From Eledone cirrhosa (Eukaryota), in assembly GCA_964016885.1 (NCBI GenBank), contig OZ024741.1, forward strand, positions 215,016,001 through 215,080,000: a DNA stretch of 64,000 nucleotides, in the 5' to 3' direction. Shown here piece after piece: positions 4,568-62,805 of the stretch. The stretch's first letter is position 1. Each line of letters starts with the position of its first letter. The position numbers and the translations under genes are program-made. The notes under the pieces were generated by a model. It was given only the letters and a program-made list of their open reading frames with translations. It ran no database searches and was not told the DNA's origin.

Positions 4568-4622
<55 letters not shown>

Positions 4623-4632
<10 letters not shown>

Positions 4633-5310
4633 TATGTACACGTACATACATATATGTATACAGACGTACAGTAGTATGTATATATATATAAACACATATA
4701 TATACATGCACACATATACATATGTACGTATGGATTCACCAAACATTTATTATAATGCTCGGTGTGTTTGTAAAGAAACATCCCGTATTAAACCGTAGTG
4801 TCTAGCAACCACCGTTGCTCGTTTGTTCAACACTGACAAAGGAACGCTGTACTAGTTTCAAGCTTATTAGCTATCGTCAGCAACGTATACCTTCCTGCCA
4901 GATTGTTGAACGTCCGAAAGTATATACTTTCCTTATGCATATTAACGGCTGAGTAGCCCAATTTGCATATCGAGTGGGTTAATCGGCCGGGTGCACCGAA
5001 AACGATAAACGGAAAAAATGAAACGAAATTTCATTTCCCACTCTTAGTACGGCTGTTACTTAAATATAAGTATGTACACGTACATACATATATGTATACA
5101 GACGTACAGTAGTATGTATATATATATATACACATATATATACATGCACGCATATATATATGTACGTATGGATTCACCAAACATTTATTATAATGCTCGG
5201 TGAGTTTGTAAACAAACATCCCGTATATGTGTGAATGTATATATATATGTGTATATATATATACATACTACTGTACGCCTGTATACATATATGTATGTAC
5301 ATTTTTTCCG
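4623..5310 (-). mobile_element. ~430-bp HHR-bearing tandem repeat family R430 (retrozyme-like), locus 1 (~1.4 monomers)
   Basis: The unit restarts at ~5060. The same unit recurs at 37130-37420, 38560-40800 and 59710-60865. HHR at 4844-4886. Confidence 0.85.
4844..4886 (-). ncRNA. Minimal type I hammerhead ribozyme (R430)
   Basis: The reverse complement is ACGTTG-CTGACGA-TAGCT AATA AGCTT-GAA-ACTAGT-A-CAGCGT: 6-bp stem I, intact core, palindromic stem III, GUA cleavage triplet. Confidence 0.88.
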
Positions 5311-5328
5311 TTTATATATATATATATA

Positions 5329-16086: not shown

Positions 16087-18450
16087 GTGAAAATATATAT
16101 AAAGGAGAACAAACCGTTAAAACATGTTTATTTAAATCAGCACCTACGTACGTTTCGCCCGAAAAGGACTTCTCAAGAGCGTAAAAAAACTAAAGAGTGT
16201 TCCTTACGTGACCCAGAAGTGGTTTTAAAGATAAATTCACATCACAGTTCATTCTTCGAAAAGCACATGTATTGTTTTTGCAGTAGATCAGGGGAAATAA
16301 CTCTAGCCGGTGTTAGAACAGTGTTCCCCAAGCTATTTGTTACCCGTTACTACTTTGTGGGTGCTGCTTTACCTTTGTCGATTCACGCCGGGTCTGGGAT
16401 GCACGGTTGGTTTCTAGATGTGTATTTGCAGCGCCTGCACACCTGGGTGTTAAGGTTTAGTGCAGGGGGAGCCGGTTTCTGGTTTTCATACCTCATTCTT
16501 ATTCCATCTGGAGTAAGACATCTTTATACGGTGCCTGCAGTTTATCACCGATTCTGTTCTGCTGTTGATGAGCTCAGGGGGTGCCGTTATGATATGGTAA
16601 AGCTCCATGAGGCAAAGCTCGCACTTCCTCTTGAAATTTTACGGTGCTGCTCTACCGACAATTTCCCAGTGTGTGGAGAAGCTGATGTTTGAGTCTTTTA
16701 ATGCTGTGATGTAATTGGCGAGCGAAGTGGAGTGTCTTAGTTTTTTGTTTGTGAAAGAGTGGAGATGTGTTCGAAATCTATTTTTGAACGGGCCAGAGGT
16801 GGCCCCTATATAATGTTTAACGCTATTATGGCTAGTTATGGTGCACCTATAAATAACCTTATCTGTCAGGCAATTTCCCCTAAGGGTACAGCTTCCCCTG
16901 TCACGACAGTTGCATTTTCGGTCGCAGTCACTTCTAGTTCCCGAGGTAAGGCTATTATTATTGCTATCTATGTTGTTACCTACGGCTCTATCCCTGTCGT
17001 TAGTACTATTATATCCCACAGCGTGCGGAGTAGTACTATTATCACTCCGCACGCCGCAGTGCCTTCTGTTGTCGTCAGATGACCCGTACGGGTCACCAGC
17101 ATATTCCCCAGTCATGTCGCGGTTATGTTGGTTGCGTCTGTTGTGGCTGTTGCCAGCACTATTGGGTGCTGCTAGGGAGACGTTAAGGCCGTTATGGTTA
17201 TTGTCAGGTATAGAGGTATCGGTGTTAAGGTGCTGTGTTTTGGTGATCTTACTGTGATTAGTTGTTCCTATCATGTCTGCTAGGTTAGGAGTAGTAGAGA
17301 AGGATATTTTAATATATTCCTATTCAGGATTTTCCTATATTTATGGTTGGGTGAGAAGTTCTTCTCTAAGGCTTCGAAGAATATCCGGGGTACGATGGAG
17401 GCCACACTCCAAGAGTAGGGAGGATGGAACCATAGGACGTTACGGTGGCGGTTCCGTGTATTAGTAGGTTTGCTATACGTTGTGCTTTCTAGGTAACCGT
17501 TCTTATGCATATTATTGTGCTGTAGCCAGTTATGTGACCCTTTCGCTTTATGCTCGGGTGCACTCGGCTTCCTTCTGCTGCGTTTATGTGTAGCAAGACG
17601 CTGGTTGGAAGACGTTGGTAGTAGGCTATCGCCATTGCTGATCTTATAGTAGGGGAATAATTCTAGTAGGCTACAGCGGTCACTGTCACCAGTGTCGTGA
17701 TCTTTATTGTGCGGTAGGTTTTCTACACCATCGCTCGTGTAATTAACGTCGCGGCCGTGTTTCTTAGTGCGATTGTCTATACTATAGTTCCTGACTCTGT
17801 CTAAGCCGCTGCGTACTCGGTTATAGGTATGGCTTACTATAACATTAGTCATATGGGGGGGTGGTTTCTAGAGCTAACGTTAGGGTTGTAACAGGTTCTT
17901 CGGTTAAATCCGGCACTTAGCAAGGCCTTATTGTAGTATTCTGCCGCTTGGTTGAAGATATCCTCGTTGGCGGAGAGCCTCGCGATCCTATGTGAAATGC
18001 TATAAACTATGGAGTTGAGAGTAGGCTTAGGGTGGTTTGAGGCATAATTAATATGAGATAAAATCTCTCTGGGCTTATGGTATGGCCCGTACTCAACTCC
18101 AGGGTCACGTCCAGGAAGTTGACTACCTGGTGGTTGAGGTCCATAGTCACGGATAGGCCGTATGACTTGAAGAATCTGTGTATGTGCTTGTTAAGGTTCT
18201 CTATCCTGCGGGGGCTATGGTTTCTAACGGTAAACAGGGCGTCGTCTCTATACACATCTCCTTGTAGGACAGGTATCTCGTCGCTAAGTCTATGGAAGAG
18301 GTATATTCCGACAAGGTCAGTTGATTGGGCCGAGTCACTGGACCCCATCGTTATATCGAAGTTATCAGGACGGTTGGTTCTGGTCCAGTGGGAGCCTTCG
18401 AACTGGATAATGGTTCTACGCGCCGTTAGTACTATATCTATCTCTTTTTA
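16087..18450 (-). pseudogene. Penelope-like retroelement, 5'-truncated and frameshifted (RT + GIY-YIG; probably Naiad-type)
   Basis: RT: MGSSDSAQSTDLVG, VYRDDALF, VNFLDVTL. Thumb/linker: SNHP..., RNVLWFHPPYS. Endonuclease: CNC..CTLRGNCL..VIYRC..HYIGATSGPFKNRF..H, then CELCLMEL...INSRTE...CRH. Split over several frames. Confidence 0.9.
16141..16182 (-). ncRNA. HHR variant with U3-A8 core in the PLE 3' region
   Basis: The reverse complement is TTGAGAA-GTCC TTTTC GGGC-GAA-ACGTACGT-A. Stem I is weak. Confidence 0.6.
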
Positions 18451-26704: not shown

Positions 26705-30213
<3,509 letters not shown>

Positions 30214-32624: not shown

Positions 32625-35600
32625 ACATTACCACCACCAACACAGCCACAATCACCACCATTAACATAACCACCACCAACACAGCCACAATCACCACCAT
32701 CAACATAACCACTAGTATGACCACAGCCACAATCACCACCATCAAAATAACCACCACCAACACAGCCACAATCACCACCATCAACATAACCACTAGTATG
32801 ACCACAGCCACATTCACCACCATCAACATAACCACTAGTATGACCACAGCCACATTCACCACCATCAACATAACCACTAGTATGACCACAGTCACAATCA
32901 CCACCATCAACATAACCACTAGTATGACCACAGCCACAATCACCACCATCAACATAACCACTAGTATGACCACAGCCACAATCACCACCATCAACATAAC
33001 CACTAGTATAACCACAGCCACAATCACCACCATCAACATAACCACTAGTATGACCACAGTCACAATCACCACCATCAACATAACCACTAGTATGACCACA
33101 GTCACAATCACCACCATCAACATAACCACTAGTATGACCACAGTCACAATCAACACCATCAACATAACCACTAGTATGACCACAGCCACAATCACCACCA
33201 TCAACATAACCACTAGTATGACCACAGTCACAATCACCACCATCAACATAACCACTAGTATGACCACAGTCACAATCACCACCATCAACATAACCACTAG
33301 TATGACCACAGCCACAATCACCACCATCAACATAACCACTAGTATGACCACAGTCACAATCACCACCATCAACATAACCACTAGTATGACCACAGCCACA
33401 ATCACCACCATCAACATAATAACCACTAGTATGACCACAGTCACAATCACCACCATCAACATAACCACTAGTATGACCACAGCCACAATCACCACCATCA
33501 ACATAACCACTAGTATGACCACAGCCACAATCACCACCATCAACATAACCACTAGTATGACCACAGCCACAATCACCACCATCAACATAACCACTAGTAT
33601 GACCACAGCCACATTCACCACCATCAACATAACCACTAGTATGACCACAGCCACATTCACCACCATCAACATAACCACTAGTTTGACCACAGTCACAATC
33701 ACCAGCATCAACATAACCACTAGTATGACCACAGCCACAATCACCACCATCAACATAACCACTAGTATGACCACAGCCACAATCACCACCATCAACTTAA
33801 CCACTAGTATGACCACAGCCACATTCACCACCATCAACATAACCACTAGTATGACCACAGTCACAATCACCACCATCAACATAACCACTAGTATGACCAC
33901 AGTCACAATCACCACCATCAACATAACCACTAGTATGACCACAGCCACATTCACCACCATCAACATAACCACTAGTATGACCACAGCCACAATCACCACC
34001 ATCAACATAACCACTAGTATGACCACAGCCACAATCACCACCATCAACATAACCACTAGTATGACCACAGCCACATTCACCACCATCAACATAACCACTA
34101 GTATGACCACAGTCACAATCATCACCATCAACATAACCACTAGTATGACCACAGTCACAATCACCACCATCAACATAACCACTAGTATGACCACAGTCAC
34201 AATCACCAGCATCAACATAACCACTAGTATGACCACAGCCACAATCACCACCATCAACATAACCACTAGTATGACCACAGCCACAATCACCACCATCAAC
34301 ATAACCACTAGTATGACCACAGCCACATTCACCACCATCAACATAACCACTAGTATGACCACAGCCACAATCACCACCATCAACATAACCACTAGTATGA
34401 CCACAGCCACATTCACCACCATCAACATAACCACTAGTATGACCACAGCCACAATCACCACCATCAACATAACCACCACCAACACAGCCACAATCACCAC
34501 CATCAACATAACCACTAGTATGACCACAGCCACAATCACCACCATCAACATAACCACTAGTATGACCACAGCCACAATCACCACCATCAACATAACCACT
34601 AGTATGACCACAGTCACAATCACCACCATCAACATAACCACTAGTATGACCACAGTCACAATCACCACCATCAACATAACCACTAGTATGACCACAGCCA
34701 CAATCACCACCATCAACATAACCACTAGTATGACCACAGCCACAATCACCACCATCAACATAACCACTAGTATGACCACAGCCACAATCACCACCATCAA
34801 CATAACCACTAGTATGACCACAGTCACAATCACCACCATCAACATAACCACTAGTATGACCACAGCCACAATCACCACCATCAACATAACCACTAGTATG
34901 ACCACAGCCACAATCACCACCATCAACATAACCACTAGTATGACCACAGCCACATTCACCACCATCAACATAACCACTAGTATGACCACAGCCACAATCA
35001 CCACCATCAACATAACCACTAGTATGACCACAGTCACAATCACCAGCATCAACATAACCACTAGTATGACCACAGCCACAATCACCACCATCAACATAAC
35101 CACTAGTATGACCACAGCCACATTCACCACCATCAACATAACCACTAGTATGACCACAGCCACAATCACCACCATCAACATAACCACTAGTATGACCACA
35201 GCCACAATCACCACCATCAACATAACCACTAGTATGACCACAGCCACAATCACCACCATCAACATAACCACTAGTATGACCACAGCCACAATCACCACCA
35301 TCAACATAACCACTAGTATGACCACAGCCACATTCACCACCATCAACATAACCACTAGTATGACCACAGCCACATTCACCACCATCAACATAACCACTAG
35401 TTTGACCACAGTCACAATCACCAGCATCAACATAACCACTAGTATGACCACAGCCACAATCACCACCATCAACATAACCACTAGTATGACCACAGCCACA
35501 ATCACCACCATCAACTTAACCACTAGTATGACCACAGCCACATTCACCACCATCAACATAACCACTAGTATGACCACAGTCACAATCACCACCATCAACA

Positions 35601-36310
35601 TAACCACTAGTATGACCACAGTCACAATCACCACCATCAACATAACCACTAGTATGACCACAGCCACATTCACCACCATCAACATAACCACTAGTATGAC
35701 CACAGCCACAATCACCACCATCAACATAACCACTAGTATGACCACAGCCACAATCACCACCATCAACATAACCACTAGTATGACCACAGCCACATTCACC
35801 ACCATCAACATAACCACTAGTATGACCACAGTCACAATCACCACCATCAACATAACCACTAGTATGACCACAGTCACAATCACCACCATCAACATAACCA
35901 CTAGTATGACCACAGCCACATTCACCACCATCAACATAACCACTAGTATGACCACAGCCACAATCACCACCATCAACATAACCACTAGTATGACCACAGC
36001 CACATTCACCACCATCAACATAACCACTAGTATGACCACAGCCACAATCACCACCATCAACATAACCACTAGTATGACCACAGCCACATTCACCACCATC
36101 AACATAACCACTAGTATGACCACAGCCACAATCACCACCATCAACATAACCACCACCAACACAGCCACAATCACCACCATCAACATAACCACTAGTATGA
36201 CCACAGCCACAATCACCACCATCAACATAACCACTAGTATGACCACAGCCACAATCACCACCATCAACATAACCACTAGTATGACCACAGCCACAATCAC
36301 CACCATCAAA
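32625..36310. repeat. Homogeneous 42-bp minisatellite (~87 units) with higher-order duplication
   Basis: Unit ATAACCACTAGTATGACCACAGCCACAATCACCACCATCAAC, with rare 39- and 45-bp variants. Confidence 0.97.
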
Positions 36311-37129
36311 ATCATCACCACCACCATCATCACCACATTCACTTCCATCAACACAAGCATGACCACCACGCACCCATCACAACCATCAACACCACCATCA
36401 TCATCATCACCACCATCAACATCATTAACATCACCTCCACCACCAATACCAGCACAGATACAACCACCAGCAGAGCCACGATCACAATCACCACTCCACC
36501 ACCATCACAACCACCACCACCAATACCACCATCGCCACCACCACCACCAGCTCCACCACCACCACCAATACCAACACCACCACGAATACCACCACCACCA
36601 ATACCACCAATACCACACCCATCACCACCACAACGACCACCATCACCACCACTCCACCACCATGACAACCAATACCACCACCACCATAATCACCATCAAT
36701 ACCACCACCACTAATACCAGCACCACCAATACCACCACCACCACCACCATCACAACCACCAAAACCACTACCACCACCACTACCACCATCACCAATACCA
36801 CCACCACTACCATCACCACCAATACCACCATCACCACCACCACCCCACCTCCACCAATACCACCAATACCACCACCACCAACACCAATACCACCACAACC
36901 ACCTCCACCACCACCACCATCATAGACCATTATCCACCATAAATATCAGGAATATGTGACACGGTACTGTGAGGTGATCTGATGTAAACAGTAAAACGTT
37001 CATAACACCATCATCAAATACTGCCACCTCTCTGACATTAAATACCATATACCACCACCACCAGACCATCAACACCACCACCACAACACCCAGACCATCA
37101 CCATTTATATGTATATATATATATATATA

Positions 37130-37420
37130 TATAACAGCCGTACTAAGAGTGGGAAATGAAATTCCGTATGAAATTTCATATATATATATATAAACGGAAA
37201 AATGAAACGAAATTTCATTTCCCACTCTTAGTACGGCTGTTACTAAAATATAAGTATGTACACGTACATACATATATGTATACAGATGTACAGTAGCATG
37301 TATATATATATACACACATGAACACATATATATATGCACGTATGGATTCACCGAATATTTATTATAATGCTCGGTGTTCTAAGAGTGGGAAATGAAACTT
37401 CGTTTCATTTTTTCCGTTTA
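37130..37420. repeat. R430 fragments in mixed orientation (HHR segment absent)
   Basis: AATTTCATTTCCCACTCTTAGTACGGCTGTTA occurs in both orientations. Confidence 0.85.
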
Positions 37421-37444
37421 TATATATATATAAAACTATAATAT

Positions 37445-37647: not shown

Positions 37648-38030
37648 ATTAGTAAAAAGGAAAAGAAAAATGCTGACAAATTTTTTCCAGCGAAAAATAC
37701 TTTAATTAGGAATAAGTATAAATTAGTAATAAATATTAGTTAGTATTCAGTTTTAGTTTTAAGTTTTTACCAGTTGCTCATTTCTTATCATTTTCAAAAA
37801 TAATTTTGAGATAGAGTGCTCGTGATTCTTGCTCTAATCTGATTCGAGCAAGAATCACGAGCACTCTATCTAAAAATTATTTTTGAAAATGATAAGAAAT
37901 GAGCAACCGGTAAAAACTTAAAACTAAAACTGAATACTAACTAATATTTATTACTAATTTATACTTATTCGTAATTAAACTATTTTTCACTGGGAAAAAT
38001 TTGTCAATATTTTCTTTTCCTTTTTACTAA
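37648..38030. repeat. Near-perfect ~380-bp palindrome
   Basis: The arms meet at TCGTGATTCTTGCTC-taatctgattc-GAGCAAGAATCACGA (~37820-37860). Confidence 0.9.
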
Positions 38031-38044
38031 TATATATATATATA

Positions 38045-38292
38045 TAAGGAAAAAAGATGAAATCGAAAATGCAACTGAAGTCTTTTTTTTTAAATATATA
38101 TATTTATTTGGTTCCTTTACCGGTTTCGCCGTTCTTCTGCTTTTCAAAAGTAGAGTTGAGATGGAGGGTCTGTGGTTTCTACTTTTGAAAAGCAGAAGAA
38201 CTGCGAAACCGGTAAACGAACCAAATAAATATATATATTTAAAAAAAAAAAAGACGCCAGTTACATTTTCGATTTCATTTTTTTTCCTTATA
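38045..38292. repeat. ~245-bp palindrome whose arms each carry a U3-A8 HHR motif
   Basis: Plus strand 38181-38217: CTT-TTGAAAA-GCAG AAGAA CTGC-GAA-ACCGGT-A-AAC. Inverse copy at ~38115-38150 has stem I CTT/AAG. Confidence 0.8.
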
Positions 38293-38452
38293 CATTCACT
38301 CGTGTAGGACACCTCAGTTATTTTTCCTTTTGTAAAAAAACCCTCACTTTTTAATATATATACATATATATATATAGTGGTGGAACACTGGAAGGTAATA
38401 TCCGTAGTGGTAGAGCACTCAGTCCAAGGGACGAGTCATTACCATGCACATC

Positions 38453-38491: not shown

Positions 38492-38559
38492 TATGGTGAA
38501 CTAACTGTTGTGTAACCACTTCTATATATATATATATAAAATTATAATATATATATCAT

Positions 38560-40232
38560 ATGTACGTATGGATTCACCGAACATTTATTATAATGCTTGG
38601 TGTGTTTGTAAACAAACATCCCGTATTAAGCCTTAGTATCTAGCAACCATCGTTGCTCATTTGTTCAACACTGACAAAGGAACGCTGTACTAGTTTCAAG
38701 CCTTTTTGTCAATGTTCGGTGAATCCATACGTATATATATATATGTGTGTGCATGTATATATATATATATATACATACATGCACACACATATATATATAT
38801 ACGTATGGATTCACCGAACATTTATTATAATGCTTGGTGTGTTTGTAAACAAACATCCCGTATTAAGCCGTAGTGTCTAGCAACCATCGTTGCTCGTTTG
38901 TTCAACACTGACAAAGGGACGCTGTGCTAGTTTCAAGTTTATTAGCCATCGTCAGCAACGTATACTTTCCTGCCAGATGATTGAACGTCTGAAAGTATAT
39001 ACTTTCCTTATACATATTAACTGCTGAGTAGCCCAATTTGCATATCGAGTGGGTTAATCGGCCGGGTGCACCGAAAACGATAAACGGAAAAAATGAAACG
39101 AAATTTCATTTCCCACTCTTAGTACGGCTGTTATTTAAATATAAGTATTATACGTACATACATATATGTATACAGACATACAGTAGTATGTATATATATA
39201 TACATACATGCACACATATATATATAATAAATAACAAAGAACGCCTATAGCATATGCATATCTTTACTTGCTAACATTGTTTCATCCGCACTATAAGTGG
39301 GACTCATCAGAGCATAAAGGTTAATTACATGCCATACAAGCAATAACAAATCCAAGACTCTCCTGATCCTCTCCCCAGTATACACATATATATATGTACG
39401 TATGGATTCACTAAACATTTATTATAATGCTCGGTGCGTTTGTAAACAAACATCCCGTATTAAGCCGTAGTGTCTAGTAACCATCGTTGCTCGTTTGTTC
39501 AACACTGACAAAAGAACGCTGTACTAGTTTCAAGATTATTAGCCATCCTCAGCAACGTATACCTTCCTGCCAGATGATTGAACGTCTGAAAGTATATACT
39601 TTTCCTATGCGTATTAACGGCTGAGTAGCCCAATTTGCATATCGAGCGGGTTAATCGGCCGGGTGCACCGAAAACGATAAACGGAAAAAATGAAACGAAA
39701 TTTCATTTCCCACTCTTAGTACGGCTGTTATTTAAATATAAGTATTATACGTACATACATATATGTATACAGACATACAGTAGTATGTATATATATATAC
39801 ATACATGCACACATATATATATATGTACGTATGGATTCACTAAACATTTATTATAATGCTCGGTGCGTTTGTAAACAAACATCCCGTATTAAGCCGTAGT
39901 GTCTAGTAACCATCGTTGCTCGTTTGTTCAACACTGACAAAGGAACGCTGTACTAGTTTCAAGCTTATTAGCCATCCTCAGCAACGTATACCTTCCTGCC
40001 AGATGATTGAACGTCTGAAAGTATATACTTTTCCTATGCATATTAACGGCTGAGTAGCCCAATTTGCATATCGAGCGGGTTAATCGGCCGGGTGCACCGA
40101 AAACGATAAACGGAAAAAATGAAACGAAATTTCATTTCCCACTCTTAGTACGGCTGTTACTTAAATATAAGTAACAGCCGAGCATTATAATTAATGTTCG
40201 GTGAATCCATACGTACATATATATATGTGTGC

Positions 40233-40305
<73 letters not shown>

Positions 40306-40800
40306 TATATATAGATATATATACTACTGTACGTCTGTATACATATATGTATGTACGTATATACTTATATTTAAGTAACAGCCGTACTAAGAGTGAGAAA
40401 TGAAATTTTGTTTCATTTTTTCGGTTTATTTATTTCGGTGCACCCGGCCGATTAACCTACTCGATATGAAAATTGGGCTACTCAGCCGTTAATATGCATA
40501 AGGAAAGTATATACTTTCAGACGTTCAATCATCTGGCAGGAAATTATACGTTGCTGACGATGGCTAATAAACTTGAAACTAGCACAGCGTCCCTTTGTCA
40601 GTGTTGAACAAACGAGCAACGATGGTTGCTAGACACTACGGCTTAATACGGGATGTTTGTTTACAAACACACCAAGCATTATAATAAATGTTCGGTGAAT
40701 CCATACGTATATATATATATGTGTGTGCATGTATGTATATATATATATATATACATACTACTGTACGTCTGTATACATATATGTATGTACGTATACATAC
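38560..40800. mobile_element. R430 array: three-plus minus-sense monomers followed by an inverted plus-sense monomer
   Basis: HHRs at 38919-38961(-), 39516-39558(-), 39945-39987(-) and 40548-40590(+). Period is 429 bp between the second and third. Confidence 0.9.
39269..39314 (-). ncRNA. Type I HHR of a different family, nested between R430 monomers
   Basis: The reverse complement is TGCT-CTGATGA-GTCC CAC TTATA GTG C GGAT-GAA-AC AAT GT-T-AGCA. Confidence 0.72.
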
Positions 40801-40817
40801 TTATATATATATATATA

Positions 40818-41527: not shown

Positions 41528-43172
41528 ATTATCCCGGGTTCAATAGGTGATATCCACAATAAGTAAGGTACTCAATACAAAGCAGATTATAAATATTTAA
41601 TATAGAAACGTTTCTATAGGACTAGAACTGTTTCATTCGGGAGAAATCATCGGTATAACTACTGTTGAAACATTTGTAAGCACTCGGAATAAATTACCTT
41701 TTTATGATGTCTACCTGTTATTAATCATATATATAATTATATATATATATATATAAATTAATAAAAACAATGAATTAAAAACAAAGAACAAGTTCCTTAT
41801 ATTAAAAAATTCATCGTTTTACGATCGTTTCTAGGATGTTTATGTGTGTTGGTATGTATATCATGTTTAAGATCTATGTAAAAATATCACAAATTATCAG
41901 AGGAAATATATATTTCTTCACATATACATGCTGTCTTAAGAAATGATGAGATTTGTTTATTGAAAAAAAACAACAAAGATTTAATATAAAAGGTCTGTTT
42001 GGGAACAGGGTTTGAATTGACCAATAGAAAATTATTGAGAAGTCAAGTTGGTAGAATAGTGGTAGTAGAATTTTAATTTAATGCAGACCTATGTTTTGAA
42101 TGAAAATAATACTTTGAATGAAAAGAGTAGTTTGGGGATGAAAAGAGGTCAAGCCAGTGAAGGGTACACGAAAATTTGATGTTATTAAAGAATAATGTTA
42201 AAAACGAAGGAGAATAAAATTTTAGGGTAAGGGTATTAATGAGAAATACCAAACTTATTTAAACCACAAGGAATCTAGATCTATAACAAGAAATTAAATT
42301 AATTAATAGGTATACTTATAAGGATAAATTTATATTAATTTATATGAATGTGATAAATAAGAATTAAATGTTATTAAAGAGTGTTGTTAAAAACGAAGGA
42401 AAGTAAAATGTTGGGATAAGGGTAGTAGTGAGAAATACCAATCTTATATAAACTACAAGGAATCTAGATTCATAACAGAAAATTAAATTAATTTATAGGT
42501 ATACTTTTAGGTATTAATTTTAGGAAAAGAGAGCTGTAAGAGGGAAATAAAATTATGAAGTTCTCTGCAGTAAAGTACTAATTATAGGTTAACTAAATTA
42601 AAAAAACTAATTATAATAATATGTAGAATATAAGTGTAAGGTGTATATTCATTAGGTATATATTATTTGAAGGTTCTTCTAATTCTATGATTGCAAGATA
42701 TAATTAATTCCTGTCGCTTATTTAATCCTTAGATTTCATGATTTCAAAAAGTTCCTGGGAGCATAACCTACACTCGTATCTGTTATTTTGATAAGGGGTG
42801 ACCCTTTTGAGCACACTCCAGGTCAGGTTGTAATCGATATTCTTCTTTCTATAATTATTAATTGTTTCAGCCAAGGATGTTGTATTAGCTAATGCGGCAT
42901 ATTTAAAACTATGTTTGTGAGTATTAAATATTCCTTTCAATTGGTTAGACGTAGCTCCTATATAAGAATAAGTGGAGTCCTTAGTGCTAATTTTACATTT
43001 ATAGACTATGTTATTAATAAGACAATTTCCCTTCAATGGGCAATTTCTTTTGATTCTACAGTTACAACCATTCGTGAATAATAAACAAACCTCATCATTT
43101 CTGAAGACAGCATGTATATGTGAAGGTATGTATATTTCCTCTGATAATTTGTGATATTTTTACATAGATCTA
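41523..43172 (-). mobile_element. PLE 3' fragment (GIY-YIG at ~42660-43075) with long 3' UTR and 5' inverted segment
   Basis: GCNCRIKRNCPLKGNCLINNIVYKC...YIGATS...CRLCSQEL...SCNH. 43080-43172 is the reverse complement of ~41870-41962. Internal ~190-bp tandem duplication at 42179-42520. Confidence 0.85.
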
Positions 43173-44099: not shown

Positions 44100-44455
44100 T
44101 TATCCATATAGCTTGAGGAAAGTTCCCGTCCTTAGGTGTCTGCAGGCATCGAATAAGTCGGCCCTTCTGTTTAATAATTTGGTTCCGCCATGAAGAATCT
44201 CGAGTGTCTCACTAAGACAGAGGTTGCAAATACCAGACCCGCCTCTGTCTGGGGGAACCTTTCTAACCACGGACCAGACCAGAGAGTGAGGGGTCTTTTC
44301 AAGTTTGAGCTTCCAGATCAATTCAGAAAGGGCCGTACATTTCCTCTTATCTATTCTGTTAAAGGAATGGCGATGGTTATACCACCGATCTTTGAAACTC
44401 GTCGCTGTGGATCCTATGTAGTGGTGCTCCGAGTTAGGGGTTGTAACCTTGCACC
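44100..44455 (-). pseudogene. PLE GIY-YIG C-terminal fragment (probably Naiad-type)
   Basis: Manual extension of the ORF: CKVTTPNSEHHYIGSTATSFKDRWYNHRHSF...TALSELIWKLK...CNLCLSETLEI...LLNRRADLFDACRH. Confidence 0.88.
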
Positions 44456-44872
44456 ATTCTGTATATATATATATACATATATACAGAAGTGGTTACACAA
44501 CAGTTAGTTCACCATACAGAGAACAATTGTTTCACCTTAGCGGATCCTCAGCTAGTAATACTGTCTCTACCTTCTGGGCTACTCGTCCCATGGACTGAGT
44601 GCTCTACAACTACGGATATAATCTGCCAGTGTACTACCTCTCTCTATATCTATCTATCTATCTATCTATCTTGATAGAGTAAGACACGCTTCACATCGGC
44701 TCCGCTATTCCATCGGGATTTACCCTTACTATAGTAAGTACCAGATAAATTTTTCAGTGCAACACATTTGGAACACTAACCCCTGTTATTTAGGGAAACA
44801 TTTTTACATTTACCCCCTTTTTAGGGGGTAAAATAAATATCTATTTTGCTGTAAAATTTCTTTCTTGGCAGC

Positions 44873-46495
44873 ATGGCGGAAAAGATGGCAGACATGTCTG
44901 CCATTAGCTCTGCCACGCCCCCCAAGTCTGAAGAACAAAAAATAAATACAACAAAATTAGACAACGAAACAAACAAGGAAAATGAAAAAACAAATGTTAC
45001 GGAAAATGAGCAAACAGAAAACAAACAAACAGAAAATAATAATACAAATATCAACAAGGCAACTTTCGCCCAGAAAACAAAACAGTCCATAACATATACA
45101 CCAATAGACCTAACTGCCGCCAGAGAAAAACTGGCCGAAGCAAAGAAACACATTGTTTTGGGGGAGAACGGAATGTTTTCCATTAACTCCCCCCCCCCAG
45201 AATTCAAGAAAGCGAGAACAGAGAACACAGTTCTCTTCAGAACAATCCTAAACCAAACAAGAAAGCCGGCACAGCCCAGCCAAATGGAGATAGAGTTGGT
45301 CCTAAAAGACTATATGAAGAATATTCTCTTCATACGAAAGGACCGACTCTATGGCAGCATTTCGGTCTGAACAAAAGACAAGGAAACGGCGCAGAAGCTT
45401 TCCCTAAGCCGACTCTCATCGACAACATACAGCTTCTATCCCTCCTACATGGGTAGAAGAACACAGAGAGTAAAAATACAAACAATGCTGCCCACAATGG
45501 ACTTCTGGTGGGCTATTGCTGGCTTCATAGACATGGGCGAGGACACAGTGCTGTCAATGGGGAAGGCATCCGGAGATGCGTTCCTGGGAATGGGCCTCGA
45601 CCTACTAGTCCAAATGAGGCCCGAAAGAATAGCACAAATCCCGGATCGCATCTGGCTGGATGAGCTCACCCCAATAGATATAATTGTAGAGGGGAGAAGA
45701 CCAGCATGCTATTTATGCACGGAAAGGGGACACATTAAGGCTAACTGCCCGAAACGTATCCCCCAAAAAGGACTATTGCCCACACCCACCACAAACAGTA
45801 CACCAACACCACCCACCTCCAAAAATACACTAATACCACACACAGCAAACAAAATACAAACACCGCCAAGCACAACACAAACATCACCACCACCAGCACC
45901 AAACACAAGCACGACACAAAAATCACCACCACCAACACAAACACCACCACCACCATTACCAACCACAAGCACGACACAAACAGCACCACCACCACCACAA
46001 AACGCATTCCAAACAAATAATTAAAAAAACAGCAACAAATCTACCCCTCCCGCAAAAAAACAACAACCAGACACGACGTCCCTCCCACCTAGCGCTGAAG
46101 AGTTTCCCCCAACTTCTGAAGAAGAAGGAGGAGAAGCCTTCAGACAAGTTAAAAGAAAAAAAAGAAAGCACACACCCAGCACACCACAAATAACCCACAC
46201 ACAAACACCAACTCCAATAAAAAACACCCCACCCTCATCAAACAAAAATAAATCTGCACCTCCCCTCTCCGAAACATTGACAGCATCACAAAAAAAGACA
46301 TTGCAATACACATATATAAATAAAGAAAACAAAAAACTGTTTAAATTAATAAACAATAGCCCTTTGGTGCAGACCGAAGGGCCAAACTTTATCTCAACAA
46401 AGAACTTCACCCATTTAAAAATGATAAAGGTCCCTCTGGACCTTTATCGTTCCTTAAAAGAACAATTTAGACAGGACGTGAGCCCCCCTGTTTAA
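44873..46495 (+). pseudogene. LINE ORF1 (gag-like zinc knuckle, Pro/Thr-rich tail), interrupted
   Basis: VEGRRPACYLCTERGHIKANCP (CX2CX4HX4C). In-frame TGA at 45368-45370 and a break near 46020. Confidence 0.8.
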
Positions 46496-46703
46496 AACCG
46501 TTAAATCGCGTCCTCTTGAAAGATTTCCCCATAACCTCCCCTCTCCCTGACACAACTCCAAACACCCCAACCCCACCACACTCGGGCACCCCCACACCAC
46601 CACAAAACATCCCTCCACCTAACACACCTGACGCCATGGAAATTACACAACCCGGAGAGGTAGGTGCTTTTCTTTCTTCACTTTCAACACCAAAATAGAT
46701 CAA

Positions 46704-49700
46704 TTGAGAGTTGGCTGTTTGAACGCGCGTGGCCTGGGCTCAGCTTGGAAGCAAGCAAAGCTACTAAGTGACCTCAGGTCACGAAGTATAGATGTGATGG
46801 TTGTTTGCGAGAGTCGGATCAGCAGCGTGCGACAGCTGGCTCCCGCCTTCGATGACTTTGAGATGCACGCATCTCTCTGTCAACCCGGAGGCGGGGGGGG
46901 GGGGTGCCGTACTGTTGGATAAACGTCTGGCTCTCGACGTACAGATTGTTCACTCGGACCCGGGGGGTTGATTACTGGTGCTGGACGTCGGAGGCGGTGA
47001 AGGCGGGGCTTTCAGACTGGTCGGTCTTTATGCCCCCTTCGGGGCTGAAAGAGCCGACTTCTTCCAGCGTCTGGAGACTTTTCTAGGAACGTCGCGTTCC
47101 CTGCTTTTAGTGGGGGACTGGAATGGAATCCTAGATGCGCGTTGGGACTATGCAGGGGCATGTCCCGATAGAGGGGGGTGTAGCAGCCTCAAGGGGTTAC
47201 TCGATCGATTCGACCTGGTCGATAGATTTCGACTAGATTGTCCAACTGCGCCAACCTGGACCTGGGCAAACCGCAGTGGACAATCTAGATCGTACCTAGA
47301 TAGATTTTTGGTTAGGAGTAAGGATAGGGACTATTTAGTTGTCCAGAATTGATCATGGTTGGCTATTCAGATCACAAATTAGTGACCTGCGTGGTCAACC
47401 TTGATAGAACGCATAGACAGGGTCGCGGTTACTGGAAGATGAACTTGTCCTTGCCGGCAAAGAAAGATTACAGGAACCGGATTAGTAGCTTAGTTAAGAT
47501 GCGGTTGACGGGAGCGATCGTCAACAGTAGGTGGTGGGTATCTCTAAAGAGAGAGATTAGAGTAAGTTCGATAGGTTACAGTAAGGAACTAGCGGCGAAT
47601 AGAAATAGGAAGGAAAGGGAGTTAACAGATAAACTAGAAGAGGCGATTAGGAGCGGAGACGTAGCCAGAGTGTTAGCGGCGAGAACGGCGTTGAGCCAGT
47701 TCTTTGACGCGAAGCACGAAGGCTGCGTTGTCCGAAGTAAAATACGTGCTTTAGGAAACGAGGGGACCAAAGCTGTTAGCTAGGCCCGCGTGACAGAAGC
47801 CAAGAGTGGGATTAAATCCACCATTCGGTCTTTGCGAGACCAGGATGGACGGGTGATCCTTGAACCTGAGCGGATGTGCGAGGCCTTTCAAAGGCACTTT
47901 GCTCGACTGTTTGGAGGGGGCGGGGGGCCGGACGGGGATGTGGACTTCGGTCCATACCTCGACGGTCTACCGCGTCTTTCGAGCGGCGAAGCGGAGTGCT
48001 GCGAAAGGCCAATCACAGCCACTGAAATCGGGGAAGCGCTCAGCCAATGCAGCAGACGCAAATCTCCGGGTCTCGATGGTCTACCATACGAACTTTATTT
48101 AGCTATGCCGGTCTTGTTCTCCGAACTCCTCGAGGCTGTCTATTGCAACTGGCAACAGAACGGGAGAATTCCCTGTTCTGTGACCAAGGGCGTGGTCACG
48201 CTAGTGAGGAAGGACGAGAGCAAGGGGGACGACTTAAGTAACTTTAGGCCCATAACTCTGCTGAATGCAGAGTTACAGATTTTGGCAAGGTGTTGGCGAA
48301 GAGGTTGGCGCTTGTGGTGGGTGGTTTGGTGGGAGACGCGCAGACATGCGCTATCCCGTCCAGGTCCATTCACGACAACCTCCACCTCATGCGATACATC
48401 ATAGAGAGGGTTGGCAACGAACCCGGCTTTGGTGGGGCCCTGATCAACTTGGATCAATCTAAGGCGTTCGATAGGGTCGACCATGGTTACCTGGATGCGG
48501 TGCTAGCGGCGGCGGGCTTCGGACCCGTTTTCAGGGGCTGGATTTCTGCCATGCACAGTGGCAACATCTACTCTAGGATTAAAGTAAACGGCTACCTCTC
48601 GGAGCCGTTTCAAATCACCCGGTCCATCAGACAGGGGTGCCCCCTCTCCTCCCTTCTGTACGTATTGACTCTCGAGCCACTGCTGCGGAAGTTGGAGTTG
48701 CTGCGGGGCATACCCCTGGAACCGGGATTGCACAAAGCGGTCTCGGCCTATGCCGACGACGTAACAGTAATGGTGGCGGACGCCTCGGAAATCGGGGCGA
48801 TCGCCACCCTACTGGAGAAATACGAAAGGCTGACGGGGGCTAGGCTGAACCGGGACAAGTCAGTCGGTTTGCAACTCGGAACGTGGAGGGGCAAACCGAT
48901 GCCGTTAGACGATATCGTCGGGCGGTGGACGGAGGGCCCGGTGAAGCTGCTCGGGGTCTGGTTCGGACCGGACCTCCAGGTGGAGAAGAATTGGGGCGAG
49001 GTGACGAGCAGGGTGTTTGCGCTGACCCAGAAGTGGGCCAAGTGAAAACTATCACTGAAAGGTCGGGCGGAGGTGACGAACGCTTACATAGCGTCCGTCA
49101 TCTGCTACCGCCTGACCGTCGTGCCTTGCCCCAAGGAAAAGATCACCATCATGGAACGCATGCTCTTCCAGTTCCTCTGGAAGAAGCGGCCTCCCATGGT
49201 GAGGAGATCCATCTGCTGCCAGCACCCTTCGAAAGGAGGGCTGGGTATGCCGTGGCTGTTGATGCGTAGGCACGCATTGAGGCTACGGCATCTACAGGTA
49301 TTCCTCACCGGTCAGCCGGTGTGGGCCCCGTTTGTGAGGCGAGCCTTCCCACAGCTCGTCTCGCTCACCGAGCTGCAATCCTGGGTGAAGCAAAGACCGA
49401 GAAAACTGGGCAACTGGCACACCGAGTGTGCCCAGGCGCTCACGGCTATCTGGCAAGCGGACCCGACTGTCAGTGGAGAATCCACCTCGACATTCTATAG
49501 AGGGCTGGTGGCTAGCAGGGGCGACGACACCCTTGGAGAGTCGCTAGGCATGGAGGAGGACGAACTGGCCAGCCTGTTCGGTAGAACTTTCGGCCCGGGA
49601 CCCATGGACAACTTCCAGAGGTCCCTAGCCTGGCAGTGTTACCGGGGGGCTCTGCCCGTTCGAGAAAAGCTCTACAGACACGGGCGCCCGGGCAGGGATC

Positions 49701-50131
49701 CAGCGAAAAAGATCTGTCCCAGATGCGTGCGCGACGAGGAAACCGTTGCGCATGCACTGGTACACTGCCCTGGCGTTGCCGATCTGTGGGGCTACGTCGA
49801 ACGACTGCTGTCGCGTGTGGCGCCGATTCGATTAACCGCCGAGTCTGTGGTGAAAATCAAGCCGCCGCCTCCCTTCAGAAACGAAGCAGAGGCGGTCTTT
49901 CTGTGCGTAATAGCTATGATGAAAGAGGTTGTGTGGTGGACGCGCCTGAAAGGTCTGGGGTCGGGTGACTTTCTCTCCGGCCATCACCTGGTTTACTTCT
50001 TCCGATACCACTTCGGAAGAAGGATCAGGATGGAGAAAGAAGTGCTTGGCCCCAGACAGTTTTATGAAAGGTGGGTGAAAGAAGCGAGAATGGCTCGTGT
50101 AAATGGGCCTTCTCTCTACATTGTTCTGTAG
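46704..50131 (+). pseudogene. LINE ORF2: AP endonuclease + reverse transcriptase + C-terminal zinc finger, with about five frameshifts/stops
   Basis: GCLNARGL, VCES, LYAP, VGDWN, SYLDRF, SDH, KSPGLDGLPYE, FRPITLLN, LDQSKAFDRV, RQGCPLS, AYADDV, GGLG, CPRC...ETVAHALVHC. Confidence 0.95.
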
Positions 50132-53818: not shown

Positions 53819-54319
53819 TATTTTGCAGTGCACTGTATGCTTAATTAAAAGCATTTTGAAGACCATACACTATTGTTTTAAAATAGTGGCAGGGGAGATA
53901 AACTGACAGAACTCTGTTTCGTACTGATTGGTACTTATCAAAGCTCACTACTCCTTCTGTTTGCTGATAATGATGTGTGTTGGATTCTTATAGAATTCCA
54001 ATATTAATCTGCTGGACCGGCGACCGCTCTGTATAATCAGTTCCTGATTATTACTGGAATTCTATAAGAATCCAACACACATAATTACGAAAATTATGTA
54101 ATATTCATTCATTATTTATTCAAAGTAATCCAACTTATTTTATAAACGGGGTAAAAAAATATATTCTGGACGCAGTCCCGCATTCCTTTCTTATTATAGT
54201 TAAGATTGATTGGTGACGCGTGTTTCGCCATTGATCAGCTCAAGATTCGATATGTATCGATCTGATCCGACTCTGGAATTAAAATGTACGTATGTGTGTA
54301 GCTATATCTATATCTATAG

Positions 54320-59709: not shown

Positions 59710-60860
59710 GAGCAGTACATAAATATATGTATACAGACATACAGTAGTATGTATATATATATACATACATGCACACATATATATATATGTACGTATGGAT
59801 TCACCAAACATTTATTATAATGCTCGGTGTGTTTGTAAACAAACATCCCGAATTAAGCCGTACAGTGTCTAGCAACCATCGTTGCTCATTTGTTGAACAC
59901 TGATAAAGGAACGCTGTACTAGTTTCAAGCTTATTAACTATCGTCAGCAACGTATACCTTCCTGCCAGATGATTGAACGTCTCAAAGTATATACTTTCCT
60001 TATGCATATTAACGGCTGAGCAGCCTAATTTGAATATCGAGTGAGTTAATCAGCCGGGGTGCCGTTAATATGCATAAGGAAAGAATATACTTTCAGACGT
60101 TCAATCATCTGGCAGGAAGGTATACGTTGCTGACGATGGCTAATAAGCTTGAAACAAGTACACCGTTCCTTTGTCAGTGTTGAACAAATGAGCAACGATG
60201 GTTGCTAGACACTGTACGGCTTAATTCGGGATGTTTGTTTACAAACACACCGAACATTATAATAAATGTTCGGTGAATGCATACGTACATATATATATAT
60301 GTGTGCATGTATGTATATATATATAAATACTACTGTACGTCTGTATACATATATGTATGTACGTATACATACTTATATTTAAGTAACAGCTGTACTAAGA
60401 GTGAGAAATGAAATTTCGTTTCATTTTTTCCGTTTCTCGTTTTCGGTACCCCGGCCGATTAACTCACTCGATATGCAAATTAGGCTGCTCAGTCGTTAAT
60501 ATACATAAGGAAAGTATATACTTTGAGACGTTCAATTATCTAGCAGGAAGGTATACGTTGCTGACGATAGCTAATAAGCTTGAAACTAGTACAGCCTTCC
60601 TTTGTCAGAGTTGAACAAATGAGCCACGATGGTTGCTAGACACAGTACGGCTTAATTCGGGGTGTTTGTTTACAAACACACCGAGCATTATAATAAATGT
60701 TCGGTGAATCCATACGTACATATATATATATGTGTGCATATATGTATATATATACATACTACTGTATGACTGTATACATATATGTCTGTACGTATACATA
60801 CTTATATTTAAGTAACAGCCGTACTAAGAGTGAGAAATGAAATTTCGTTTCATTTTTTCC

Positions 60861-60865
<5 letters not shown>
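59710..60865. mobile_element. R430 locus: one minus-sense monomer back-to-back with about two plus-sense monomers
   Basis: HHRs at 59911-59953(-), 60124-60166(+) and 60555-60597(+). Period 431 bp; inversion junction ~60060. Confidence 0.9.
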
Positions 60866-60897
<32 letters not shown>

Positions 60898-62522: not shown

Positions 62523-62652
62523 AAGTTATTCATAAATATATATATATATGTTTTTACATGTCAGTTGCATTCAAACTTACAATGATATGCATTATATATA
62601 TATATATACATATACAGTTGAAAATTGCAAACTCGACTGTCACCACATATCA

Positions 62653-62691
62653 TGAACCTGAAGATTGCGAAAGCATGAAAGTACTTGTTCA
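62653..62691 (+). ncRNA. Minimal type I HHR
   Basis: TGAAC-CTGAAGA-TTGC GAAA GCAT-GAA-AGTACT-T-GTTCA: 5-bp stem I, GNRA-capped stem II, palindromic stem III. Confidence 0.78.
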
Positions 62692-62805
62692 ATTAACACT
62701 TAGAATTTAATATTCTATCATACTATTTCATTATAATACCATTATATATATTTTAAAGGATTGTAAATAAAACGAGTAAATCAGACAAAGTTGGAATTCC
62801 TCTTA

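What the first reader, a model, noticed from the sequence alone, without database searches (positions are those of the whole stretch)
38560..40800. A ~430-nt hammerhead-punctuated tandem repeat family (R430): candidate cephalopod non-LTR retrozyme / circular RNA system
Seen: a non-coding unit repeats head-to-tail at three HHR-bearing loci (4623-5310, 38560-40800, 59710-60865), with HHR-less fragments at 37130-37420. Each complete monomer has exactly one type I HHR (ACGUUG-CUGA(C/G)GA-stem II-GAAACUAGUA-CAGCGU), eight full motifs in total. Consecutive predicted cleavage sites would release 429 nt (39522-39950, minus) and 431 nt (60161-60591, plus). The core varies only at the free N7 position. 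Established: tandem monomers separated by type I HHRs define metazoan non-LTR retrozymes, which self-process to monomers and circularise. Minimal HHRs with palindromic stem III are typical of PLEs and are proposed to cleave as dimers. Inference: R430 is a non-autonomous retroelement mobilised by PLE RT. I do not know of this family being described, but cannot search to confirm.
Basis: partly seen in the sequence, partly recalled or inferred. Interest (0 to 1): 0.88.

Follow-up and report, generated by a model that had tools for sequence, protein, structure and literature searches.

The report
Hammerhead retrozyme with Penelope insertion scars
A 430-base non-coding repeat with a predicted self-cutting RNA motif has over 12,000 copies in this genome, and the two fixed end points of its copies show it is likely pasted in by enzymes borrowed from Penelope-type jumping genes, so it is likely a new member of a known class (animal retrozymes) whose cutting and circular RNA are still untested.

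Summary
The repeat and its eight hammerhead motifs are real, and the 429- and 431-nt monomers map as stated. Corrections: two of eight motifs have a broken core (U16.1C), only three are fully intact, the fold is a canonical type I hammerhead rather than the minimal Penelope type, and the loci are two-armed inverted insertions rather than plain tandems. The genome holds 12,914 exact hits of the ribozyme pattern. Of 138 ribozyme-spanning runs, 117 end at one of two fixed points 52 nt apart, mostly in (TA)n; in 28 of 31 scorable two-armed insertions one arm uses each point. This is the 'tail' signature of Penelope-like element (PLE) reverse transcription. A stem I pair is kept through compensatory change. 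No copy examined runs into an ORF, and five local PLE-type families tested show no homology, so the helper is unknown. No RNA data were available: cleavage, expression and circles are untested. Verdict: new member of metazoan non-LTR retrozymes, with good genomic evidence for PLE mobilisation. This scan reported the same kind of element before, including a 466-nt sister subfamily in this genome.

The parts
4619..5226 (-). Long arm, unit positions 62-429 then 1-222; ends at the short fixed 3' end in (TA)n. Position 1 = first base after the predicted cut.
   Evidence: BLAST tiling
4844..4886 (-). Intact hammerhead motif, predicted cut after 4850
5224..5316 (+). Short inverted arm with internal deletion, ending at the long fixed end (position 274) in (TA)n
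37108..37421 (.). Ribozyme-less inverted fragments of unit positions about 86-274
38523..38706 (-). Fragment: 3' half of a hammerhead plus unit positions 1-163
38727..39226 (-). Outer left arm, positions 128-429 then 1-204; its ribozyme (38961-38919) has U16.1C; 99% identical to the outer right arm around the ribozyme
39225..39381 (-). Foreign insert: two-armed 3' end of a young Penelope-clade family with its own hammerhead (39310-39273), sitting in the unit's internal TA tract
39382..40173 (-). Inner run, positions 207-429, 1-429, 1-140; contains the 429-nt monomer 39522-39950
39945..39987 (-). Intact hammerhead motif, predicted cut after 39951
39516..39558 (-). Hammerhead motif with one stem II mismatch, predicted cut after 39522
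39677..39728 (-). The 52-nt 'tail' (unit positions 223-274) between the two fixed 3' ends used genome-wide
   Evidence: loose ends into (TA)n at 39677 and 40106
40178..40307 (+). Short inverted piece (from position 88) running into (TA)n
40280..40813 (+). Outer right arm, positions 124-429 then 1-222, short fixed end; ribozyme 40548-40590 has U16.1C
59715..60058 (-). Left arm, positions 288-429 then 1-200; intact ribozyme 59953-59911
60061..60866 (+). Right arm, positions 330-429, 1-429, 1-274, long fixed end into (TA)n; 431-nt monomer 60161-60591; both ribozymes (60124-60166, 60555-60597) have a stem I mismatch

Best explanation
R430 is a protein-free repeat of about 430 nt with one canonical hammerhead motif per unit, and it is likely a non-LTR retrozyme whose RNA is predicted to self-cleave, probably circularise, and be copied into (TA)n microsatellites by the reverse transcriptase-endonuclease of a Penelope-like element. 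Shown: no ORF; over 12,000 ribozyme copies; two fixed 3' ends at unit positions about 222 and 274; variable 5' ends; back-to-back arms that use one end each; (TA)n flanks. Inferred steps: (1) a locus with two or more ribozymes is transcribed; (2) the ribozymes cut, likely as dimers through the ACUAGU palindrome; (3) a host ligase would close the monomer; (4) a PLE protein, likely a dimer, would nick both strands of a TA tract and prime at the two internal sites, one per strand; (5) each reverse transcriptase would run past the ribozyme junction and drop off at random, giving mostly 1 to 2 units; (6) the two cDNAs would join 5' to 5'. Some long arrays later grew by DNA-level duplication. I put PLE-driven retroposition at about 0.9 and a circular template at about 0.55.
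For: Copy number: 12,914, 2,950, 32,427 and 14,913 exact hits of four patterns, reversed controls 0, 0, 1, 0. Ends: 117 of 138 ribozyme-spanning runs from 106 loci end at 268-276 (59, of which 42 TA-flanked) or 212-224 (58, 40 TA-flanked). Of 57 head-to-head pairs, 31 have both ends at fixed sites and 28 of those have one of each (p 2e-6); 21 of 28 are TA-rich on both sides against 6-8% background. PMC11167929 shows a PLE RT starting at two internal RNA sites, nicking and extending both strands, and calls the tail unique to PLEs. No 5' wall at the cut site: 2 of 175 starts in that 10-nt bin; 29 of 30 consecutive copies that hold positions 12-28 cross the junction, which a linear cut monomer could not template. 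Arms and tandem units of one locus share haplotype at 19 polymorphic sites (0.82 in 26 pairs, 0.87 in 35, against 0.56 in 2,611 random pairs). A young locus has 2+7 junctions at 0-3 mismatches in 310 nt with both fixed ends in (TA)n. Selection on the fold: stem I positions 396/3 pair in 133 of 140 copies against 72.6 expected (U.G, A-U, G.U); two subfamilies differ at 76 of 429 positions but at none of the 11 core bases; U16.1C is rare, 92 hits against 14,913. A U.U stem II base with 2-bp stem III occurs in axolotl HHR_Amex2, which cleaves, better as a dimer (PMC7229834). Intact PLE ORFs exist in the genome.
Against: No cleavage, transcript or circle is shown. The core is not clearly more conserved than the rest within the sample: 3.2% against 6.7% mismatch, but P = 0.056 against non-CpG columns. 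The covariation is one pair and about two historical changes; most other pairs never co-vary. The isolated motif folds no better than shuffles (z -0.35 to -1.65) and Rfam does not detect it. No helper was identified: five PLE-type families tested have the same two-end TA pattern or similar flanks but no significant likeness to R430. PMC11167929 found ribozyme cleavage unnecessary for PLE insertion in vitro, and the 2026 preprint saw cleavage in only 1 of 9 Xenopus retrozyme dimers. The two outer arms at 38925 and 40584 share a core-breaking change and are 99% alike, so either a dead-core RNA was copied or the arms were homogenised. Long arrays show DNA-level duplication, so array length is not proof of rolling synthesis.
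Confidence: 0.8

Rival explanations
1. Same PLE-driven mobility, but the template is an uncleaved linear multimer read from tandem source loci; the ribozyme only frees the RNA now and then and no circle is needed (a 'mini-PLE').
For: Ribozyme mutants did not affect insertion by the Anolis PLE in vitro (PMC11167929). Long arrays that could serve as sources exist (37 and 34 junctions). Two arms in the window share U16.1C. Junction crossing and the lack of a 5' wall fit this too.
Against: Stem I and the core were kept across subfamilies 18% apart; no dead-core subfamily spread; no shared 5' flank other than R430 itself or common dispersed repeats among the flanks compared, as 5' carry-over from source loci might give. 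Circles are shown for coral, mussel and axolotl retrozymes.
Confidence: 0.35
2. R430 is only the terminal repeat (pLTR) of an autonomous PLE, seen as 5'-truncated copies.
For: The end pattern is that of PLEs; 24 of 57 Xenopus retrozyme families match known elements, nearly all PLE termini (preprint); many PLE families are present and few were examined.
Against: Of 30 copies (out of 2,817) that read through the long end, 29 reach the next ribozyme 108-121 nt later and one stops inside the unit; none enters an ORF, whereas a Penelope family tested the same way does (L266). PLE protein fragments lie in 23 of 167 loci, none abutting an R430 5' end in sense (by inspection). 71 complete monomers are 396-538 nt.
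Confidence: 0.07
3. R430 is a satellite spread by DNA-level mechanisms, with a chance or relic ribozyme motif.
For: Some arrays show recent DNA-level duplication, including an 842-nt higher-order repeat.
Against: 116 of 138 runs hold one ribozyme and are dispersed; fixed 3' ends, 5' truncation and one-end-per-arm are retroposition marks; old arrays decayed without homogenising (88-96% within locus); compensatory change in stem I.
Confidence: 0.03

Closest known systems
Metazoan non-LTR retrozymes (Cervera and de la Pena 2020, PMC7229834; coral, mussel, axolotl)
   Same: Non-coding, low-GC (33-37%) unit of a few hundred nt, one canonical type I hammerhead per unit, thousands of copies from single units to long tandems, self-paired predicted circle, PLEs in the same genome. 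The ribozyme resembles axolotl HHR_Amex2 (U.U at the base of stem II, 2-bp stem III).
   Different: Slightly longer (420-540 nt) than the 170-400 nt described; has an internal TA-rich tract; inserts in (TA)n as two-armed inversions with two fixed ends, which the parts read do not describe; no target duplication could be scored; RNA and circles not shown here.
Vertebrate retrozymes as PLE derivatives (Li, Clavereau, Pollet 2026, 10.64898/2026.07.22.740005)
   Same: Tandem type I hammerhead units, mostly short arrays, co-occurring with PLEs and proposed to use PLE machinery.
   Different: Their link rests on co-occurrence and pLTR homology in Xenopus; R430 shows no homology to the five local PLE-type families tested, and the link rests on insertion anatomy. 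Their survey had no mollusc (31 vertebrates, 3 insects, 1 anthozoan).
Endonuclease-bearing Penelope-like elements (Penelope/Poseidon, Neptune; PMC8557442, PMC11167929, PMC4209133)
   Same: Partial tandems, inverted 5'-truncated arm, a tail at one end only, AT/(TA)n targets, a type I hammerhead upstream of two RT start sites.
   Different: No ORF; tail is 52 nt rather than 30-40; ribozyme is canonical, not the minimal form with an extra base before G10.1-C11.1.

Membership tests
Non-LTR retrozyme | Short non-coding repeat unit (about 150-450 nt, up to 970 in the vertebrate survey), low GC | tested here: met
   No ORF in six frames; 71 monomers of 396-538 nt, GC 33-37% in 8 representatives
Non-LTR retrozyme | One type I hammerhead with complete core per unit | tested here: met
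   106 of 140 sampled copies and 6 of 8 window copies have an intact core; stem I covariation; no Rfam hit
Non-LTR retrozyme | At least two consecutive ribozyme-bearing units at some loci; many genomic copies | tested here: met
   22 of 138 runs hold 2-7 ribozymes; arrays with 37 and 34 junctions; 12,914 pattern hits
Non-LTR retrozyme | No LTR, PBS or PPT | tested here: met
   Copies have variable 5' ends and internal fixed 3' ends, no terminal direct repeats; PBS/PPT were not searched separately
Non-LTR retrozyme | Predicted highly self-paired circular monomer | tested here: met
   Circular MFE z -3.1 to -9.2 in 8 of 8 cluster representatives, 25 shuffles each; part of this comes from the TA-rich palindromic tract
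Non-LTR retrozyme | Self-cleavage in vitro | not testable with these tools
   Needs transcription assay
Non-LTR retrozyme | Expression as linear and circular monomer RNA | not testable with these tools
   No run on record as RNA was offered
Non-LTR retrozyme | Target-site duplication, when present, longer than 4 bp | tested here: inconclusive
   Flanks are (TA)n, so duplications cannot be read
Autonomous PLE or its pLTR | RT plus GIY-YIG ORF between the repeats | tested here: not met
   0 of 30 read-through copies enter an ORF; none in register in 167 loci
PLE-mobilised element | Two internal RT start sites giving a tail at one end, inverted 5'-truncated arm, AT-rich target | tested here: met
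   definition from PMC11167929 and PMC8557442
PLE-mobilised element | Identified helper sharing terminal sequence | tested here: inconclusive
   No significant likeness to five families tested; other PLE families not examined
Minimal PLE-type hammerhead (PMC4209133) | Extra base between 9 and 10.1, G10.1-C11.1, long helix II, short helix I, little or no helix III | tested here: not met
   6-bp helix I, 4-pair helix II with U.U base, 2-bp helix III (definition)

The most novel reading that the evidence does not exclude
R430 is a viroid-like satellite RNA, unrelated in sequence to its helper, that mimics a PLE's binding site: a PLE dimer primes one circle (or two sister molecules) at two fixed sites, one per nicked strand of a TA tract, and rolls round it. 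The genome then records thousands of rolling-circle reverse transcription events and gives a ready system (circle plus intact PLE proteins from the same genome) to test how animal retrozymes move and why PLEs carry ribozymes.
Probability: 0.4. Interest if true: 0.7.

Novelty: new member of a known kind. Interest (0 to 1): 0.47.

Why it matters
That PLEs mobilise animal retrozymes has been proposed from co-occurrence and terminal homology (PMC7229834; 2026 preprint). Here the insertion scars carry the mark that PMC11167929 calls unique to PLE reverse transcription, and add that the two arms of one event almost always use different start sites. With intact PLE ORFs in the same genome, the helper, the start sites and the need for a circle can be tested directly. 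It also extends retrozymes to a probable cephalopod, for which seven literature searches found no report; repeat libraries (Dfam, Repbase, the Octopus vulgaris library) could not be searched.

Tried and rejected
Rfam: no hammerhead match. Sequencing runs: no RNA holder listed, 6 contig runs of unknown kind; contig laying showed many variants and loose ends into (TA)n at the long end but cannot address expression; no loose-end listing for the 5' part of the unit was obtained. Apparent pile-up of 5' ends at the cut site (12 of 138 in the first bin) was a BLAST edge effect and vanished with a rotated query. The 2:1 excess of the 17-mer just 3' of the cut over the one just 5' is due to subfamily variants, not to a wall: 29 of 30 cross, only 13 match exactly. 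Helper search: Neptune-type family A (30 loci), family B (30 loci), the Penelope family inserted at 39225 (11 loci), the 62658 family (25 loci) and the 38180 family (a 16-of-17 match near the 3' end scored 27, below the best shuffle 28) all gave no significant homology apart from neighbouring R430 copies. An 842-nt alternating array was considered as a dimer circle; its terminal units and opposite arm differ from both types, which favours later DNA duplication. A dead-core subfamily was sought and not found (92 hits; the change was shared by a neighbour at only 1 locus among the 15 hits examined). A Pfam family search was not possible as that accession is not held. RNAalifold on 36 copies recovered stem I and its extension but not stems II-III. 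Earlier-findings look-ups by sequence and by place returned nothing.

Full report
Observation. The unit is real. Taking 39950 to 39522 (minus) as reference, with position 1 just after the predicted cut, BLAST tiles three ribozyme-bearing loci and one ribozyme-less locus in the window. Eight full motifs exist and the 429- and 431-nt monomers map as stated. A relaxed descriptor found nothing in 20 of 20 simulated windows. But two motifs carry U16.1C, three more have a stem mismatch, and only three are fully intact. The fold is canonical type I (6-bp stem I with a bulge and further pairing, four-pair stem II with a U.U base and 6-nt loop, 2-bp palindromic stem III), close to axolotl HHR_Amex2, which cleaved 22% as a monomer and better as a dimer (PMC7229834), and unlike the minimal PLE form (PMC4209133). 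Rfam does not detect it. The focal locus is composite: two outer arms 99% alike around the ribozyme, an inner run whose two units are 98% alike to each other and 93-94% to the outer arms, and a 157-nt insert from a young Penelope-clade family.

Genome-wide picture. The window lies in a 3.0-Gb genome. Exact pattern hits: 12,914 for the ribozyme, 2,950 for a 27-mer upstream, 32,427 and 14,913 for 17-mers either side of the cut, with reversed controls 0, 0, 1, 0; these count units, not loci, and are lower bounds. 71 distinct complete monomers are 396-538 nt, with a main group near 430 and a sister group of 456-538 nt about 80% alike. Copies average 93.8% identity to the majority sequence (165 fragments from 80 loci); some lineages are young, 99% or more between loci.

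Insertion anatomy. I tiled 106 loci (28 best matches and 89 anchor-picked or extended stretches, less 11 overlapping ones). Of 138 ribozyme-spanning runs away from locus edges, 59 end at 268-276 and 58 at 212-224, with TA-rich flanks in 42 and 40; 21 end elsewhere; 116 hold one ribozyme, 16 two, 4 three, 1 six, 1 seven. The short end is blurred by a few bases of TA microhomology. 5' ends are scattered, with 2 of 175 in the bin at the cut site. Among 57 head-to-head pairs, 28 have one long and one short end, 2 long-long, 1 short-short, and 26 have at least one non-fixed end; 21 of the 28 are TA-rich on both sides, background 6-8%. PMC11167929 reports that a PLE protein nicks and extends both strands of AT-rich DNA, starts at two internal RNA sites that bound the genomic tail, is predicted to be a dimer, and does not need ribozyme cleavage in vitro. 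PMC8557442 describes the inverted truncated copy and a tail at one end only. R430 matches this anatomy, as do other families in the window.

Is the ribozyme under selection? Stem I positions 396 and 3 pair in 133 of 140 copies against 72.6 expected, as U.G, A-U or G.U; on 36 chosen copies 95.4% of cells pair against 31-43% for slid controls, but only that one pair changes on both sides, and it reflects about two events. The two subfamilies differ at 76 of 429 positions and at none of the 11 core bases. U16.1C has 92 hits against 14,913. Against this, core mismatch within the sample (3.2% versus 6.7%) is not significant against non-CpG columns (P = 0.056), as expected if most copies decay neutrally, and the isolated motif does not fold better than shuffles.

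Not a pLTR. Of 30 copies (of 2,817) that read through the long end, 29 reach the next ribozyme within 108-121 nt and none enters an ORF. PLE protein fragments occur in 23 of 167 loci, none abutting a 5' end in sense (by inspection). The genome has intact RT plus GIY-YIG ORFs: 144 of 144 scored matches at 98-100% for the window's element and 150 of 150 at 95-100% for a second family. I label both Neptune-type from the cysteine linker before the nuclease, an inference, not a tree. Neither, nor three other families, resembles R430, so the helper is unknown.

Circle or linear template. 29 of 30 consecutive copies holding positions 12-28 cross the junction and there is no 5' wall, so a linear cut monomer was not the usual template. 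Arms and units within a locus share haplotype (0.82 and 0.87 against 0.56), and one young locus has nine near-identical junctions between fixed ends. Circular folding is strong in 8 of 8 representatives. All this fits a circle, but also an uncleaved uniform multimer. Two arms in the window share a dead core, and long arrays show DNA-level duplication. No RNA evidence was available. I put the circle at about 0.55.

Host. The only named eukaryote among 7 matches to a LINE fragment in the window is the octopod Argonauta hians (62%), and named eukaryote relatives of the PLE protein are from bivalves. A cephalopod host is likely but not shown by my calls.

Literature. Read: PMC7229834 parts 2-4 of 6 and passages; 10.64898/2026.07.22.740005 parts 1-3 of 5; PMC4209133 parts 1-2 of 4; PMC11167929 parts 1-3 of 4; PMC13282606 part 1 of 3; passages of PMC8557442 and PMC6962438, the latter noting 235 Rfam hammerhead hits in giant squid. 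No supplements were opened; species lists and repeat libraries there could hold a cephalopod example. Seven searches showed no cephalopod retrozyme. Earlier notes of this scan describe the same kind of element, with two-armed ends, in this and other genomes; I reached my reading before seeing them and treat them as unverified.

Verdict. New member of a known kind, interest 0.47. The class and the PLE hypothesis are published; what this adds is a large, clean genomic record of PLE-type twin priming on a retrozyme and a testable system.

Noticed in passing
window 28063-29853 (-), with 3' region to about 26675 and inverted arm 29848-30115: 5'-truncated copy of a very young PLE (RT plus GIY-YIG, 777-aa full ORF, 144 of 144 scored copies at 98-100%); its terminal repeat has a U3-A8 hammerhead-like motif and two fixed ends into (TA)n.
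   Followed up: partly
window 37690-38030: Two-armed terminal repeat of a second PLE family (784-aa ORF, 150 scored copies at 95-100%); its hammerhead-like motif reads GCAA in place of GAAA.
   Followed up: partly
window 38050-38345: Two-armed end of another repeat family with a U3-A8 hammerhead-like motif (2,368 first-look candidates); its short end resembles R430's long end, but not above shuffles.
   Followed up: partly
window 39225-39381: Young Penelope-clade family end (40 of 40 scored at 99% or more) with a canonical hammerhead and a tail of about 90 nt, inserted in R430's TA tract; L266 runs into its ORF.
   Followed up: yes
window 62612-62805 (+): Very young family (97-100%) with a hammerhead that also has a U.U stem II base and a palindromic stem III, and two fixed ends about 50 nt apart; L294 and L310 lie next to PLE ORF pieces.
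   Followed up: partly
window 53905-53941 (-) and 16145-16176 (-): Two further U3-A8 hammerhead candidates from the relaxed scan; the second lies 3' of a decayed Penelope-type element at 16642-18447.
   Followed up: no
L342 (G000:C1:49584000-49588800), L343-L346: R430 arrays that became satellite-like: a strict 420/422-nt alternating higher-order repeat, and arrays with at least 37 and 34 junctions showing block duplications.
   Followed up: yes
window 44855-50128 (+): Decayed L1/Tx1-type LINE with ORF1 and endonuclease-RT pieces.
   Followed up: partly
window 32641-36309: 42-bp minisatellite, about 88 copies at 96% match.
   Followed up: no
window 42725-43159 (-) and 44103-44492 (-): GIY-YIG-like remnants of Penelope-type elements.
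   Followed up: no
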